From: Naegleria gruberi
Lineage: Eukaryota
Reading direction: 5' to 3' (one strand)
Assembly (NCBI GenBank): GCA_000004985.1
Contig: GG739229.1
DNA: 3,275 bases
Under the pieces are notes generated by a model. The model worked only from the letters and a program-made list of their open reading frames with translations. It ran no database searches and was not told the origin of the DNA. This document shows positions 1 through 3,275 of this stretch, piece by piece. Position numbers and translations under genes: made by a program. Numbering within the stretch: the first letter of the stretch is position 1; the number at the start of each line of letters is the position of its first letter.

Positions 1-818
1 ATAATCAAAGAGTATGTATTTCCAAACCTACCATTAAGATCTGTCTTCCATAATTGGAAGGAATAGATTGAAGTGTAGTAATTTGGGATGAGTCCAGTAA
101 AGAAGGTTTGAAGCAAGATTTTTGGGGATAATGAGAGTTGAGACTTGTCAATAATTGGGGCATTGTCAAAGGATAGGAGAATTGACATGGAGGTTTTATA
201 TTCATCCACATGATAACTGACATCTCTAGGAAAGCTTATTGGAATTGAAGCTCTCATATTGCTAACCGGATGAATAACACCTTGCATGTAGTATTGGAAG
301 GAAAATGATGTTTCTCTAATTTGAGAAAAAGTTATTGTAAAATTACTAGTCAGTTCAAATTCTCCAAAATTCTCATATTGAATATCGAACTTTAAGAGTT
401 GATTTCTGACTGGATCCTTCCTAACGCCAACTATTTGCATTCCATAAGGATCTACATTCTTCAAAATTGATCTTTGCGTATTCACAGTGATTTTACATGA
501 GTTCACATTTTCACATGACAGATTTGTAAAGTCAAATGAAAACATTTCTGATTCGAATGTATCAAAAAAGAATCTAGCATTAATCTTACTATGTGTGAGG
601 GAATAGTTTCCACTCCATTTACCATTCCTATCGAAATCCAACGTCATGGTTCCATGTAGATTTGGAACAGCAAGTTGATACATGACTATTTTAGATGTGT
701 CCACTGCATAATCGAGACCAAAATGATGAAATTCTCTAATAGGTTCCTGTGTGTTTCCACAACCAACAAGGGCAAGCAATAGAACTACTAATATCAATAA
801 GAAAATATAACCTCTCAT
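1..818 (-). CDS. Partial CDS for a secreted, probably N-glycosylated protein of unknown family. The 5' end is complete and the 3' end runs past the window start. An N-terminal signal peptide is followed by two tandem diverged copies of a domain about 195 aa long.
   Basis: ATG at complement(816..818). I checked every plus-strand triplet starting at positions congruent to 0 mod 3 from 3 to 818 by hand and found no tta, cta or tca (minus-strand stops), so 272 codons are open to the window edge. The nearest upstream in-frame stop is at complement(972..974). Translation: MRGYIFLLILVVLLLALVGCGNTQEPIREFHHFGLDYAVDTSKIVMYQLAVPNLHGTMTLDFDRNGKWSGNYSLTHSKINARFFFDTFESEMFSFDFTNLSCENVNSCKITVNTQRSILKNVDPYGMQIVGVRKDPVRNQLLKFDIQYENFGEFELTSNFTITFSQIRETSFSFQYYMQGVIHPVSNMRASIPISFPRDVSYHVDEYKTSMSILLSFDNAPIIDKSQLSLSPKILLQTFFTGLIPNYYTSIYSFQLWKTDLNGRFGNTYSLI... 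An open frame this long is extremely unlikely by chance in AT-rich DNA. The ORF track omits it, apparently because it has no stop inside the window. Confidence 0.8.
   Translation of the reverse strand, partial: MRGYIFLLILVVLLLALVGCGNTQEPIREFHHFGLDYAVDTSKIVMYQLAVPNLHGTMTLDFDRNGKWSGNYSLTHSKINARFFFDTFESEMFSFDFTNLSCENVNSCKITVNTQRSILKNVDPYGMQIVGVRKDPVRNQLLKFDIQYENFGEFELTSNFTITFSQIRETSFSFQYYMQGVIHPVSNMRASIPISFPRDVSYHVDEYKTSMSILLSFDNAPIIDKSQLSLSPKILLQTFFTGLIPNYYTSIYSFQLWKTDLNGRFGNTYSLI
759..818 (-). other. Predicted N-terminal signal peptide of the minus-strand CDS (M-R-G-Y followed by a 15-residue hydrophobic core, then G-C)
   Basis: Residues 1-20 are MRGYIFLLILVVLLLALVGC. This has a basic n-region (R2), an uninterrupted L/I/V/A core and a small-residue cleavage region (A-L-V-G-C-G-N). 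Downstream sequons NYS, NLS and NFT fit a secretory-pathway protein. Confidence 0.65.
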
Positions 819-853
819 ATATGATTCTATTTTTTTTCTGTTTTGCTGTGAAC

Positions 854-890
854 ATATTGTCGTTTTAGTAATAGTGTGCACAAATAAATT
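854..890. repeat. Left arm of a long-range inverted repeat (28 bp perfect at 854-881, plus 9 bp after an indel at 882-890)
   Basis: The reverse complement of 854-881 is gtgcacactattactaaaacgacaatat, identical to 1928-1955. The reverse complement of 882-890 is aatttattt, matching 1909-1917 after a 10-bp insertion (1918-1927) in the right copy. Confidence 0.75.
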
Positions 891-1061
891 CATAAATCCA
901 TGAATATTCAGGGCCAAATAAGAAAATAATGAAATAATAAAGAAATCGAGTACAGTGAGTTTACAGCGATATTATTTACGTTTCGTAGATGCCCTTTGAA
1001 AAAAAATTTTAAATTTTTCAACAACCTTTTGCAAGCACTTCAAAAATATTTTTATCGCCCT

Positions 1062-1100
1062 TAATAATTCAAAGAAAATGAGAATATTTTTGAATTATTA
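1062..1100. repeat. 12-bp perfect inverted repeat (taataattcaaa / tttgaattatta) with a 15-nt spacer
   Basis: 1062-1073 taataattcaaa is the reverse complement of 1089-1100 tttgaattatta. It lies inside the interior bracketed by the long inverted repeat. The adjacent 12-bp palindrome aaaaatattttt is at 1041-1052. Confidence 0.5.
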
Positions 1101-1475
1101 TAGAGTTCCAGTGATAGTGATAGTGAACAATTAATATTGAAACCAACACATAGATTTTAAGATATAGTTACTCTCATTCACCAATATTTTGAATTAATGG
1201 TGTCACCATCACATGTCTGTAGAATGACTATACTATATTTAATTTTAAATTGTTGACTTTTTTGTGCTTAATTGACTTGAAGATACTGAGCCATCAATAT
1301 GAAACTTTCTCAGATTGTTCTCCTCATCAAGGGGAGTGTATTCATATTTGATACTTGTATGATATTTTATAAATTGACTGAGAGGGAGCGAAATCTTTTT
1401 ATTGAAATGTGACAATTTGACAGATTGTTATTATTATCATATTGAATTCTATTCTAACAATGTGAAATTGATACA

Positions 1476-1660
1476 AGATGTATAGTAGTGTGATTAAATG
1501 TATCTGGTAAAGTTACAGGATGATTGGATGTACTTTCAATGAGATGGAGTGTTCACTAGGAAATACATAGTGTTGACATTGAACATTATGATTAATTTTA
1601 GAATGTAGTTTGAAATGTTTCTAAACTTATTGTGGATGTATTTCATTGATGTATACTCTT
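1476..1660. repeat. Degenerate (G/A)ATGTA-rich low-complexity block
   Basis: GATGTA or AATGTA occurs at about 1478, 1498, 1528, 1601, 1612, 1636 and 1651. There is no ORF here. Confidence 0.35.
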
Positions 1661-1690
1661 AACTGATTCCCAAGAGAGTGTCAGCTAAAA

Positions 1691-1698
1691 CTGTTTCT
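1691..1698 (+). promoter_or_regulatory. Degenerate 21U-RNA (Ruby) core motif CTGTTTCT, one mismatch to CTGTTTCA, with an A-rich 5' flank (taaaaCTGTTTCT)
   Basis: It has 7 of 8 matches to the core and sits in an AT-rich spacer context. Candidate T starts at 1737-1738 lie about 39-40 nt downstream, but there is no clean YRNT. Confidence 0.2.
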
Positions 1699-1908
1699 TC
1701 AATTTTTACGTTTTTTCAAAAATCAGAATTAAAAAATTATAAAATAGGGGCACTAAAAACACAGTAAAGAGAAGAAAAACTTGTTTTTGAAGGGCATTCA
1801 CTTTTAACAACTACGATTTTTAAGGGGTGATTGAAAAAAAACCCAGTAATCGCTGTAATCAAGTTAAATGTCTTTATTTGTTGAGTAAGGTATAAAAGAA
1901 GCTGCGGA

Positions 1909-1955
1909 AATTTATTTCATCAATAGAGTGCACACTATTACTAAAACGACAATAT
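1909..1955. repeat. Right arm of the long-range inverted repeat
   Basis: 1928-1955 gtgcacactattactaaaacgacaatat is the exact reverse complement of 854-881. 1909-1917 aatttattt matches the reverse complement of 882-890. Confidence 0.75.
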
Positions 1956-2504
1956 TGCAGCTGAATTGAATGAAATATTTGCACTATTTTAAGGGCAATT
2001 TTTTGGGCAATTTTACGGACCAATAAATCGGAGTTGGAATCACGAAATTAAAAACCCAAATTATCAAACTTTAGTTTTTAATTCAGCTGAAGGACCAAAC
2101 AAAAAGACAAAACCTACAGCACCACAAATCGTCGGGATGAGGTGCATTCATCGTGATATAGCCATTCAATTAAAATGTGAAATATCAAACGGCACAACTC
2201 TGCTTTAATTTAAATATTCGGAACATTTGTTATTAGTATCAAACTCCACACATTACAAATTAAAAAATCAATCCAAGAAATTAAATCCAAAAAGCCATCA
2301 TCCACCTCATCCAACTCCACTATTCATACCACAAAGTTTCTTTCACATGTTGCTTGATGTAATATTTTTTTTCAGGCATTAAAGCTTCATGTTCCTATTA
2401 GAATCGTAGAAGGAACACATTTCTAATTGGCATCAATTCCGAAAAGCAATTCTGGAAATCTGCTTACTTCACAAAAACGAAAAAACTGTCTCGAAATCAA
2501 TCCT

Positions 2505-2521
2505 CTCTCTTTTTCTCTCTT
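2505..2521. repeat. Polypyrimidine (CT)n-like tract ctctctctttttctctctt
   Basis: This is a direct read of the sequence. It would be a GA-rich (GAGA-type) element on the minus strand. Confidence 0.5.
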
Positions 2522-2606
2522 ATCGTTAGAGTACTCGTATTCAAAATGTTAATTTGAATAATAAAAATTTGTAATAAAGAAAAAGAAGTGATGAATGGAT
2601 CGCATA

Positions 2607-2629
2607 CGACTAATTCTACCGACTAATCC
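2607..2629. repeat. Short direct repeat cgactaattc / cgactaatcc
   Basis: 2607-2616 and 2620-2629 match at 9 of 10 positions, 13 bp apart. Confidence 0.4.
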
Positions 2630-2695
2630 GAAAGTACTATTACACACACGAACGTTTAACGTTGCAACTCCTAATAGGACGAAAAGGTTAGGTTT

Positions 2696-2801
2696 CTAGG
2701 CAGTGCCTTAGCGAATTAATGTTACTTTGTTTAATAGTAGAAGTAACATTCATTGGTGCCTTTATTCGAAATTGATTGGTAGTGAATGTATCACTGCCTA
2801 G
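2696..2801. repeat. Nested inverted-repeat (hairpin-in-hairpin) structure: a 10-bp outer stem enclosing a 14-bp stem with a 13-nt loop
   Basis: Outer stem: 2696-2705 ctaggcagtg is the reverse complement of 2792-2801 cactgcctag. Inner stem: 2714-2727 aattaatgttactt pairs with 2741-2754 aagtaacattcatt at 13 of 14 positions, and the central 10 bp are perfect. An additional small hairpin is at 2782-2798 (gtagtga / tcactgc). Confidence 0.55.
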
Positions 2802-2925
2802 CTGGTTACTGTATCGAATTATTCGAAAGCAATGTTTGCTATCGTGATTGAATGCAACATTTGGAAATGATAAAAATCAAGAAGGTAGCTTTGCATCTAG
2901 GAAGAGATTCGAACACTTTCGAATA

Positions 2926-2933
2926 GTGTTTCA
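2926..2933 (+). promoter_or_regulatory. Near-consensus 21U-RNA core GTGTTTCA (one mismatch at the first position), with a downstream CATT small motif placing a T at 2972
   Basis: GTTTCA, the most conserved part of the core, is intact. A YRNT (c-a-t-T) ends 39 nt after the core. The predicted 21-mer is TGTAATTCTTTATTTATTGCA at 2972-2992. Confidence 0.2.
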
Positions 2934-3081
2934 TCTGTCTTCACTGCTTCAGAATGTTTTATCCTTCTCATTGTAATTCTTTATTTATTGCATTTGTCCA
3001 TAACCATGCAAAATTTAATCCAAAAATCAAATATTTGGCAATTTCCACTTAACAATTCCATCAAGCAGTGTGAGAAATCTG

Positions 3082-3102
3082 CCTTTCATCCTCAAATATT
3101 AA
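3082..3102 (-). ncRNA. Predicted 21U-RNA (piRNA), 5'-TTAATATTTGAGGATGAAAGG-3'
   Basis: The 21 nt begin with the T at minus-strand position 3102, positioned by the upstream CTGTTTCA core and the TATT small motif. The 5' U is as expected for a 21U-RNA. Confidence 0.35.
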
Positions 3103-3142
3103 ATACAGAAAAGAAAACACACTGCAACATTTGTATCATGCT

Positions 3143-3150
3143 TGAAACAG
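3143..3150 (-). promoter_or_regulatory. Exact 21U-RNA (piRNA) upstream core motif CTGTTTCA on the minus strand
   Basis: The plus strand 3143-3150 reads tgaaacag, which is CTGTTTCA on the minus strand. The downstream spacer is AT-rich, and a YRNT small motif (TATT) ends with its T 41 nt past the core, which is the expected spacing for C. elegans type-I 21U loci. Confidence 0.5.
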
Positions 3151-3275
3151 CTGTCAACTTGCCAAAAACAGTAATGCAATAATATGAAGACTTGTGAAGG
3201 CAGCACTGTCCCAAATGTTTAAAAAATCGCATCCTTTCTCTAAAAAAGAAGCACCATTAATTATATAAAAATCGT

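What the first reader, a model, noticed from the sequence alone, without database searches (positions are those of the whole stretch)
854..1955. 28-bp perfect long-range inverted repeat (about 37 bp with one indel) bracketing ~1.05 kb that starts 36 bp upstream of the start codon
The reverse complement of 854-881 is identical to 1928-1955. The match continues for 9 more bp (882-890 versus 1909-1917) across a 10-bp indel. A perfect 28-mer inverted copy 1 kb away is not expected by chance even in AT-rich DNA. The left arm lies only 36 bp from the ATG of the secreted-protein gene, so the gene's proximal promoter and 5' UTR lie inside the bracketed segment. Possible interpretations are a non-autonomous TIR transposon or foldback element inserted at the gene's 5' end that may supply or disrupt the promoter, a local inverted duplication, or a large cruciform-capable regulatory structure.
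Basis: seen in the sequence. Interest (0 to 1): 0.6.

Follow-up and report, generated by a model that had tools for sequence, protein, structure and literature searches.

The report
Probable non-coding transposon beside Naegleria gene
A perfect 28-base inverted repeat brackets 1.05 kb of non-coding, AT-rich DNA just upstream of an orphan surface-protein gene of the amoeba Naegleria gruberi; it is most likely an ordinary non-autonomous cut-and-paste transposon, but its copy number could not be checked.

Summary
Positions 854-881 and 1928-1955 are 28/28 complementary, and about 2.5e-9 such repeats are expected by chance. The 9-base continuation across a 10-base indel also exists and is nominally non-random (about 1% of shuffles).

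The window is an entire 3,275-bp unplaced scaffold of Naegleria gruberi. Its minus-strand gene is a 98%-identical second copy of the 5' end of NAEGRDRAFT_73814, a 1,232-aa orphan membrane protein.

The similarity between the arms ends sharply on both sides, and the interiors are unrelated. The 1.05-kb interior has stops in all frames and no Pfam, protein-database, Rfam or tRNA match. The only possible target-site duplications are palindromic ones (TA, AT or ATAT) at the outer edge of the repeat.

This anatomy fits a non-autonomous TIR DNA transposon. It does not fit a foldback element, and a cruciform is physically unlikely with a 1,046-nt spacer. The superfamily is unresolved, with Tc1/mariner-like, Ginger2-like and Sola1-like features each only partly met.

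The decisive test could not be run, because no Naegleria genome DNA was reachable. That test is a search for dispersed copies and for an empty allelic site, predicted as GTGAACATATTGCAGC. The finding is ordinary and of low interest.

The parts
854..881 (+). Left terminal inverted repeat, 28 nt (ATATTGTCGTTTTAGTAATAGTGTGCAC)
   Evidence: (I1, 100% complementary)
1928..1955 (-). Right terminal inverted repeat, 28 nt, exact reverse complement of the left arm
   Evidence: (I1)
882..890 (+). Possible 9-nt inward continuation of the left arm (AAATAAATT)
   Evidence: Read. Occurred in 37/3000 shuffles (loose definition) and 4/3000 (strict definition).
1909..1917 (-). Partner of the 9-nt continuation. 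It is separated from the right arm by 10 extra nt (1918-1927, CATCAATAGA).
854..857 (.). Candidate target-site duplication, left copy. It is ATAT if the element is 858-1951 (TGTCG...CGACA), or TA at 855-856 if the element is 857-1952. Because it is palindromic, it cannot be told apart from the outer end of the inverted repeat.
   Evidence: TSD enumeration. No 3-bp or 5-10-bp duplication exists.
1952..1955 (.). Candidate target-site duplication, right copy (ATAT, or TA at 1953-1954)
882..1927 (.). Interior of the bracketed segment. It is 28% G+C and has 23-42 stop codons per frame. There is no protein, Pfam, Rfam or tRNA match. It contains an imperfect palindrome at 1039-1100.
819..853 (-). 35-nt spacer between the left arm and the start codon. 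This is all that remains of the gene's upstream region outside the segment.
1..818 (-). First exon of an orphan N. gruberi gene (XP_002668195, partial). It has a signal-peptide-like N-terminus and is 258/264 identical to NAEGRDRAFT_73814.

Best explanation
The segment 854-1955 (or 857-1952 / 858-1951 if the outer TA / ATAT is a target-site duplication) is one copy of a non-autonomous class II (cut-and-paste, TIR) DNA transposon of about 1.1 kb. It is inserted 36 bp upstream of the start codon of an orphan surface-protein gene in Naegleria gruberi.

Shown: the perfect 28-nt terminal inverted repeats, their sharp inner and outer boundaries, and the lack of any coding capacity.

Inferred:
- The 28-nt ends are binding and cleavage sites for a transposase encoded elsewhere in the genome.
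- Insertion duplicated a palindromic TA or ATAT target.
- The insertion displaced the gene's native upstream region by 1.1 kb, so transcription of this copy must start in the remaining 35 nt or inside the element.
- The tiny scaffold stayed unplaced because it is a haplotype or duplicate that differs from the main-scaffold copy by this insertion.
For: - The inverted repeat is 28/28 perfect and far beyond chance.
- Similarity stops abruptly. The outer flanks do not pair, and the interiors are unrelated (score 14 against a shuffle mean of 14.7; weak collinear signal only). This pattern is expected when the termini alone are constrained at family level. It is not expected of an aged inverted duplication.
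- The interior is non-coding. No ORF exceeds 56 aa, each frame has 23-42 stops, there was no hit among 5.8 billion proteins at E<=10, and there was no Pfam hit at E<=1 in six frames. G+C is 28%, against 33-34% in both flanks.
- No RNA gene explains the repeat.
- It is not vector or plasmid sequence.
- Palindromic TA/ATAT sits at the outer edge. TA is the pogo/Tc1 target. ATAT fits the AWWT target of Sola1. TGTCG fits the TGTNR termini of Ginger elements (PMC3845634, PMC2836005).
- The window is a whole 3,275-bp unplaced scaffold that duplicates, at 98% protein identity, the 5' end of a gene on a 275-kb scaffold.
- DNA transposons are known in the genus. The N. gruberi genome is 5.1% repeats, and DNA transposons make up 1.25% of the N. 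lovaniensis genome (PMC6125883).
Against: - Only one copy has been seen, and dispersal in the genome was not testable.
- No TSD exists outside the repeat, and the palindromic candidates cannot be distinguished from the repeat itself.
- No superfamily's criteria are all met.
- No internal extra copies of the terminal motif were found.
- A scan of JGI metagenome contigs gave only a chance 20-mer hit. Scans of viral contigs and of prokaryotic genomes gave nothing.
- The literature search found no description of these termini.
Confidence: 0.62

Rival explanations
1. Locus-specific inverted micro-duplication that is not mobile. A 28-37-bp stretch was copied in inverted orientation 1 kb away, for example by template switching during replication or repair. 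It has no function.
For: Only one copy is known. There is no unambiguous TSD. No related sequence was found anywhere that could be searched.
Against: Template-switch events normally create nearby, short-spacer inverted repeats (established knowledge). The palindromic TA/ATAT lies exactly at the outer edge, and the interior is non-coding and more AT-rich than both flanks. Both are unexplained coincidences under this reading.
Confidence: 0.15
2. Solo LTR of a Gypsy-like retrotransposon. The element would be 858-1951 with TGT...ACA ends and a 4-bp ATAT duplication, left behind by recombination between two LTRs. It would carry its own promoter and poly(A) signals next to the gene.
For: The TGTCG...CGACA ends fit the TGTNR pattern reported for Gypsy LTRs (PMC2836005). 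A 4-bp duplication is possible. A non-coding segment of 1.1 kb is LTR-sized. LTR elements occur in Naegleria, at 0.68% of the N. lovaniensis genome.
Against: The terminal inverted repeats of LTRs are usually only a few to about 20 nt (my knowledge). A perfect 24-28-nt repeat with a further 9-nt continuation is atypical.
Confidence: 0.07
3. Invertible promoter cassette. A site-specific recombinase would act on the two 28-nt inverted sites and flip the 1.05-kb segment, switching expression of the downstream surface protein on and off.
For: Geometry only. Inverted sites bracket the whole proximal upstream region of a gene for a predicted membrane or surface protein.
Against: No recombinase is encoded in or near the segment. 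No precedent in Heterolobosea is known to me. Only one orientation has been observed.
Confidence: 0.03
4. Assembly or cloning artefact on a tiny, low-coverage scaffold.
For: The window is a complete 3,275-bp unplaced scaffold, about the size of a single small-insert clone.
Against: Chimeric joins do not create a clean 28-nt inverted repeat 1 kb apart. There is no vector or plasmid similarity. The gene part is a good match to a real gene.
Confidence: 0.04

Closest known systems
Non-autonomous Tc1/mariner/pogo-type elements (TA-flanked; mariner-like elements have TIRs of about 28-30 bp and are about 1.3 kb long)
   Same: The TIR is 28 nt. TA dinucleotides can be read directly outside a TTGTCG...CGACAA element. 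The overall length is about 1.1 kb. pogo-type MITEs insert strictly at TA (PMC3845634).
   Different: The termini do not resemble the CAG-type ends I recall for this superfamily (from memory, not tested against a library). No transposase remnant is present. The TA cannot be separated from the palindromic end of the repeat.
Ginger2/TDD DNA transposons
   Same: If the element is 858-1951, its ends TGTCG...CGACA fit the conserved TGTNR termini. It is then flanked by a 4-bp AT-only palindromic duplication. Ginger2 makes 4-bp TSDs in AT-rich RTATAY targets (PMC2836005, PMC3845634).
   Different: The reported preferred TSD is TATA, not ATAT. Reported TIRs are about 50-180 bp, against 28-37 bp here. 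No integrase-like coding sequence is present. Ginger2 was not reported from Naegleria in the paper read (0 occurrences).
Sola1 DNA transposons and their MITEs
   Same: A 4-bp ATAT duplication fits the AWWT target that is described as a hallmark of Sola1 (PMC3845634).
   Different: The example Sola1 TIRs start with GGACCG..., which has no similarity to these ends. This rests on a single palindromic tetranucleotide.
Foldback elements
   Same: Inverted ends and no coding capacity.
   Different: Foldback arms make up much of the element. Here only 28-37 bp pair, and the rest of the two halves is unrelated.

Membership tests
Class II TIR transposon, non-autonomous | Terminal inverted repeats at both ends | tested here: met
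   28/28 perfect. Expected number by chance is 2.5e-9.
Class II TIR transposon, non-autonomous | Target-site duplication directly flanking the termini | tested here: inconclusive
   Only the palindromic options TA, AT and ATAT exist, and these are also part of the inverted repeat. Nothing was found at 3 bp or at 5-10 bp.
Class II TIR transposon, non-autonomous | Several dispersed copies sharing the termini, and empty sites at orthologous or allelic loci | not testable with these tools
   N. gruberi DNA is not in the reachable collections. The metagenome scan gave one chance hit. Viral and prokaryotic scans were empty.
Class II TIR transposon, non-autonomous | No intact transposase gene | tested here: met
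MITE in the strict sense | Length below about 800 bp | tested here: not met
   The element is 1,094-1,102 bp, depending on the boundaries.
Tc1/mariner/pogo | TA target-site duplication | tested here: inconclusive
   TA at 855-856 and 1953-1954 is compatible but lies inside the palindrome.
Tc1/mariner/pogo | DD(E/D) transposase, or terminal similarity to an autonomous member | not testable with these tools
   No coding remnant is present, and no TE library or host genome was available.
Ginger2/TDD | TGTNR termini | tested here: met
   TGTCG...CGACA, if the boundaries are 858-1951 (criterion from PMC2836005).
Ginger2/TDD | 4-bp TSD, preferentially TATA within RTATAY | tested here: inconclusive
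   A 4-bp duplication is possible, but it reads ATAT within CATATT.
Ginger2/TDD | TIRs of about 50-180 bp | tested here: not met
   28 nt perfect, and at most about 47 nt counting the indel and the 9-mer.
Sola1 | 4-bp AWWT target-site duplication | tested here: inconclusive
   ATAT fits AWWT but is palindromic with the repeat.
hAT, Mutator, P, Merlin and others with 7-10-bp TSDs | 7-10-bp direct duplication flanking the TIRs | tested here: not met
   No such duplication at any boundary from 850 to 865.
PIF/Harbinger and CACTA (3-bp TSD); piggyBac and Kolobok (TTAA) | 3-bp TSD, or TTAA TSD | tested here: not met
Foldback element | Long inverted arms forming most of the element | tested here: not met
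   The interiors are unrelated. The collinear alignment gives z=1.2-2.5 only.
Solo LTR (Gypsy-like) | TG...CA ends with a 4-6-bp TSD | tested here: inconclusive
   TGT...ACA and ATAT are possible, but the boundary choice is arbitrary.
Solo LTR (Gypsy-like) | The same sequence as direct repeats flanking gag/pol elsewhere in the genome | not testable with these tools
   No genome access.

The most novel reading that the evidence does not exclude
The two 28-nt inverted sites are recombination sites of a DNA inversion switch. The switch would flip the 1.05-kb upstream segment and so toggle expression of a lineage-specific surface protein in a free-living amoeboflagellate. This would be a phase-variation-like mechanism not described in Heterolobosea. 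A milder novel reading is that this is the first recognised member of a Ginger2-like (TGTNR ends, 4-bp AT-rich TSD) short-TIR family in Discoba.
Probability: 0.03. Interest if true: 0.8.

Novelty: new member of a known kind. Interest (0 to 1): 0.2.

Why it matters
If confirmed, it is one more non-autonomous DNA transposon in a protist genome with few repeats (5.1%). Its position is of local interest. It sits 36 bp from a start codon, on a scaffold that duplicates a gene found elsewhere. It may therefore mark an insertion polymorphism between haplotypes or recent duplicates, and could alter expression of an orphan surface-protein gene. Its termini could also help curate the Naegleria repeat library and locate the autonomous partner. 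It does not bear on any open question.

Tried and rejected
- Long degenerate arms (foldback or long TIR). A lenient local alignment appeared to extend over about 600 columns at 58% identity. Stricter scoring with shuffles showed this to be noise.
- Fetching the allelic or paralogous locus NAEGRDRAFT_73814, or any N. gruberi DNA. The proteins P0001, P0002 and P0003 are not in the gene-position index.
- Looking for sister copies through gene models. A six-frame translation of 854-1955 searched against 5.8 billion proteins gave nothing at E<=10.
- Transposase or integrase remnants. Six frames of 819-3275 against Pfam gave nothing at E<=1.
- Environmental relatives. A 20-mer of the arm scanned against JGI metagenome contigs gave one hit, L001. 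The match does not extend beyond the 20 bases and lies in an unrelated, higher-GC eukaryote-like contig, so it is a chance hit. Viral contigs and prokaryotic genomes gave none.
- RNA genes. Rfam at E<=1 gave only a noise-level mir-84 match outside the segment, and no tRNA was found.
- Vector or plasmid origin of the 28-mer: rejected.
- Extra internal transposase-binding-like copies of the terminal motif: none above chance.
- Literature. No paper held describes N. gruberi TIR families or contains this terminal sequence. The N. gruberi genome paper is not held.

Full report
**Origin of the window.**
The minus-strand reading frame from 818 to 1 is open for 272 codons. It is 100% identical to XP_002668195, 'predicted protein, partial [Naegleria gruberi]', whose only contig is 3,275 bp long. 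The window is therefore a complete small unplaced scaffold of the N. gruberi assembly.

The same 90% cluster holds NAEGRDRAFT_73814, a 1,232-aa protein on a 275-kb scaffold. It is 258/264 identical to the window's product. The window thus carries a second copy, either an allele or a recent duplicate, of the 5' end of that gene.

By reading the sequence, the protein has a signal-peptide-like N-terminus and, in the full-length copy, a C-terminal hydrophobic segment. It has no Pfam domain. An exhaustive HMMER search of 1.84 billion representatives found only one further relative, a 30%-identical N. gruberi paralogue. It is an orphan, lineage-specific gene.

**Check of the observation.**
The arms 854-881 and 1928-1955 are 28/28 complementary, with 1,046 nt between them. 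This is by far the best self-match of the window.
- In 200 dinucleotide-preserving shuffles the longest exact inverted repeat averaged 13.3 nt and never exceeded 20.
- The analytic expectation for a perfect 28-nt inverted repeat in this window is 2.5e-9.
- The claimed continuation is present: 882-890 pairs with 1909-1917 across ten extra bases (1918-1927).
- A near-collinear 9-mer of that kind arose in 37 of 3000 shuffles under a loose definition and in 4 of 3000 under the strict one. It is nominally real, although a gap-penalised alignment test did not register it.

**Extent of the similarity.**
A lenient alignment seemed to run on for hundreds of bases, but this does not survive controls.
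- With stricter scoring, the best local match between the two interiors scores 14, below the shuffle mean of 14.7 and similar to a direct-orientation control.
- Collinear alignments of the first 60-500 nt give z-scores of only 1.2-2.5.
- Outside the arms the flanks do not pair.
The repeat is therefore a short terminal feature of 28 nt, perhaps about 47 nt with the indel. It has sharp boundaries and is not a long arm.

**Content of the bracketed segment.**
- No ORF exceeds 56 aa, and each frame has 23-42 stops.
- A six-frame query found nothing among 5.8 billion proteins even at E<=10.
- Six frames of the whole non-genic part, 819-3275, hit no Pfam family at E<=1.
- Rfam and tRNA scans are negative.
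- G+C is 28%, against 34% in the coding flank and 33% in the right flank.
- The 28-mer is not vector or plasmid sequence.
- The terminal motif has no extra copies inside the element beyond chance.

**Boundaries and target-site duplication.**
I enumerated every mirrored boundary from 850 to 865 with duplications of 2-10 bp. Only palindromic solutions appeared:
- TA, giving element 857-1952 (TTGTCG...CGACAA).
- AT.
- ATAT, giving element 858-1951 (TGTCG...CGACA).
There is no 3-bp, TTAA or 5-10-bp duplication. This argues against hAT, Mutator, P, Merlin, PIF/Harbinger, CACTA, piggyBac and Kolobok.

The remaining options each meet one published criterion:
- TA is the strict target of pogo/Tc1-type elements (PMC3845634).
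- ATAT fits the AWWT target called a hallmark of Sola1 (PMC3845634).
- TGTCG fits the TGTNR termini of Ginger elements. Ginger2 makes 4-bp duplications in AT-rich RTATAY targets (PMC2836005).
None is fully met. Ginger2 prefers TATA and has TIRs of 50-180 bp. The Sola1 example TIRs are unrelated. The ends are not the CAG-type ends I recall for Tc1/mariner. Gypsy LTRs share the TGTNR pattern, so a solo LTR is a formal rival, although a 24-28-nt perfect terminal repeat is atypically long for an LTR.

**Interpretation.**
The most likely reading is a non-autonomous cut-and-paste DNA transposon. Four features support it:
- A perfect, sharply bounded 28-nt terminal inverted repeat.
- A non-coding AT-rich interior.
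- A possible palindromic TSD.
- Residence on a tiny unplaced scaffold that duplicates part of a gene assembled elsewhere.

The mechanism is inferred rather than shown. A transposase encoded elsewhere would bind and cut at the 28-nt ends, and integration at a TA/ATAT site would produce the duplication. The insertion leaves only 35 nt of original sequence upstream of the ATG, so this gene copy must be transcribed from those 35 nt or from within the element, or it is silenced. The scaffold may have stayed unplaced because it differs from the main-scaffold copy by this insertion.

Naegleria genomes do contain such elements. The N. gruberi genome is 5.1% repeats, and DNA transposons make up 1.25% of the N. 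lovaniensis genome (PMC6125883).

**What could not be done.**
The decisive test is copy number and an empty site, and it needs the N. gruberi genome. None of the reachable collections holds it:
- The three N. gruberi proteins are absent from the gene-position index.
- Viral and prokaryotic scans were empty.
- No paper held describes these termini.
Family membership therefore remains unproven, and my confidence in the transposon reading is about 0.6.

**Rivals.**
- A locus-specific inverted micro-duplication (about 0.15).
- A solo LTR (about 0.07).
- An assembly artefact (about 0.04).
- An inversion switch (about 0.03).
A cruciform is unlikely, because the spacer is 1,046 nt and extrusion needs short spacers (established knowledge).

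**Verdict.**
The foldback reading is rejected. This is most probably an ordinary new member of a known kind and is of low interest. One cheap, sharp test remains: BLASTN against the host genome, with the predicted empty site GTGAACATATTGCAGC.

Noticed in passing
window 1-3275: The window is an entire unplaced 3,275-bp scaffold of Naegleria gruberi. Its gene fragment is 258/264 identical to the N-terminus of NAEGRDRAFT_73814, which lies on a 275-kb scaffold. The six differences seen are at the protein level, and synonymous differences could not be counted. It may be a divergent haplotype or a recent partial duplicate.
   Followed up: partly
window 1-29, minus strand: The window's translation agrees with the full-length protein up to ...DLNGR and then diverges (FGNTYSLI versus KLSQRISI). 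On the minus strand the sequence there reads AG|GTTTGG. An intron therefore probably starts at about window position 27 and runs off the window edge.
   Followed up: no
window 1-818 and P0002: The gene family is an orphan. An exhaustive search of 1.84 billion representative proteins found only this gene and one 30%-identical N. gruberi paralogue (NAEGRDRAFT_69472), and there is no Pfam domain. BLASTP shows weak internal repeats of the N-terminal ~230-aa module within the 1,232-aa protein (residues 362-558, E=0.011).
   Followed up: partly
window 1956-3275: These 1.3 kb to the right of the segment have no ORF longer than 64 aa and no Pfam hit in six frames. With the bracketed segment, 2.4 kb of the scaffold is non-coding. 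This is unusual if N. gruberi is as gene-dense as N. lovaniensis, whose genome is 77% coding sequence.
   Followed up: partly
window 2690-2815: A strongly structured stretch. It has a 10-bp hairpin (2718-2727 / 2741-2750) nested within a 10-nt perfect inverted repeat, CTAGGCAGTG (2696-2705) / CACTGCCTAG (2801-2810). The single-strand fold has z=-4.3, and none of 200 shuffles folded as well. There is no Rfam match. It could be a small MITE or a structured RNA.
   Followed up: partly
window 1958-1970 and 2077-2089: A 13-nt inverted repeat (12/13; CAGCTGAATT is perfect) starts 3 nt after the right arm and brackets 106 nt that contain a tandem GGGCAATTTT motif. The fold z-score is only -1.9, so it may be chance.
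   Followed up: partly
window 1039-1100: An imperfect palindrome inside the bracketed segment (arms 1039-1055 / 1078-1094 and 1062-1073 / 1089-1100). It is the second-best self-match of the window.
   Followed up: no
L001 557-576: The only metagenome contig sharing a 20-mer with the arm is an unrelated, higher-GC eukaryote-like contig. The match does not extend by a single base, so it is a chance hit.
   Followed up: yes
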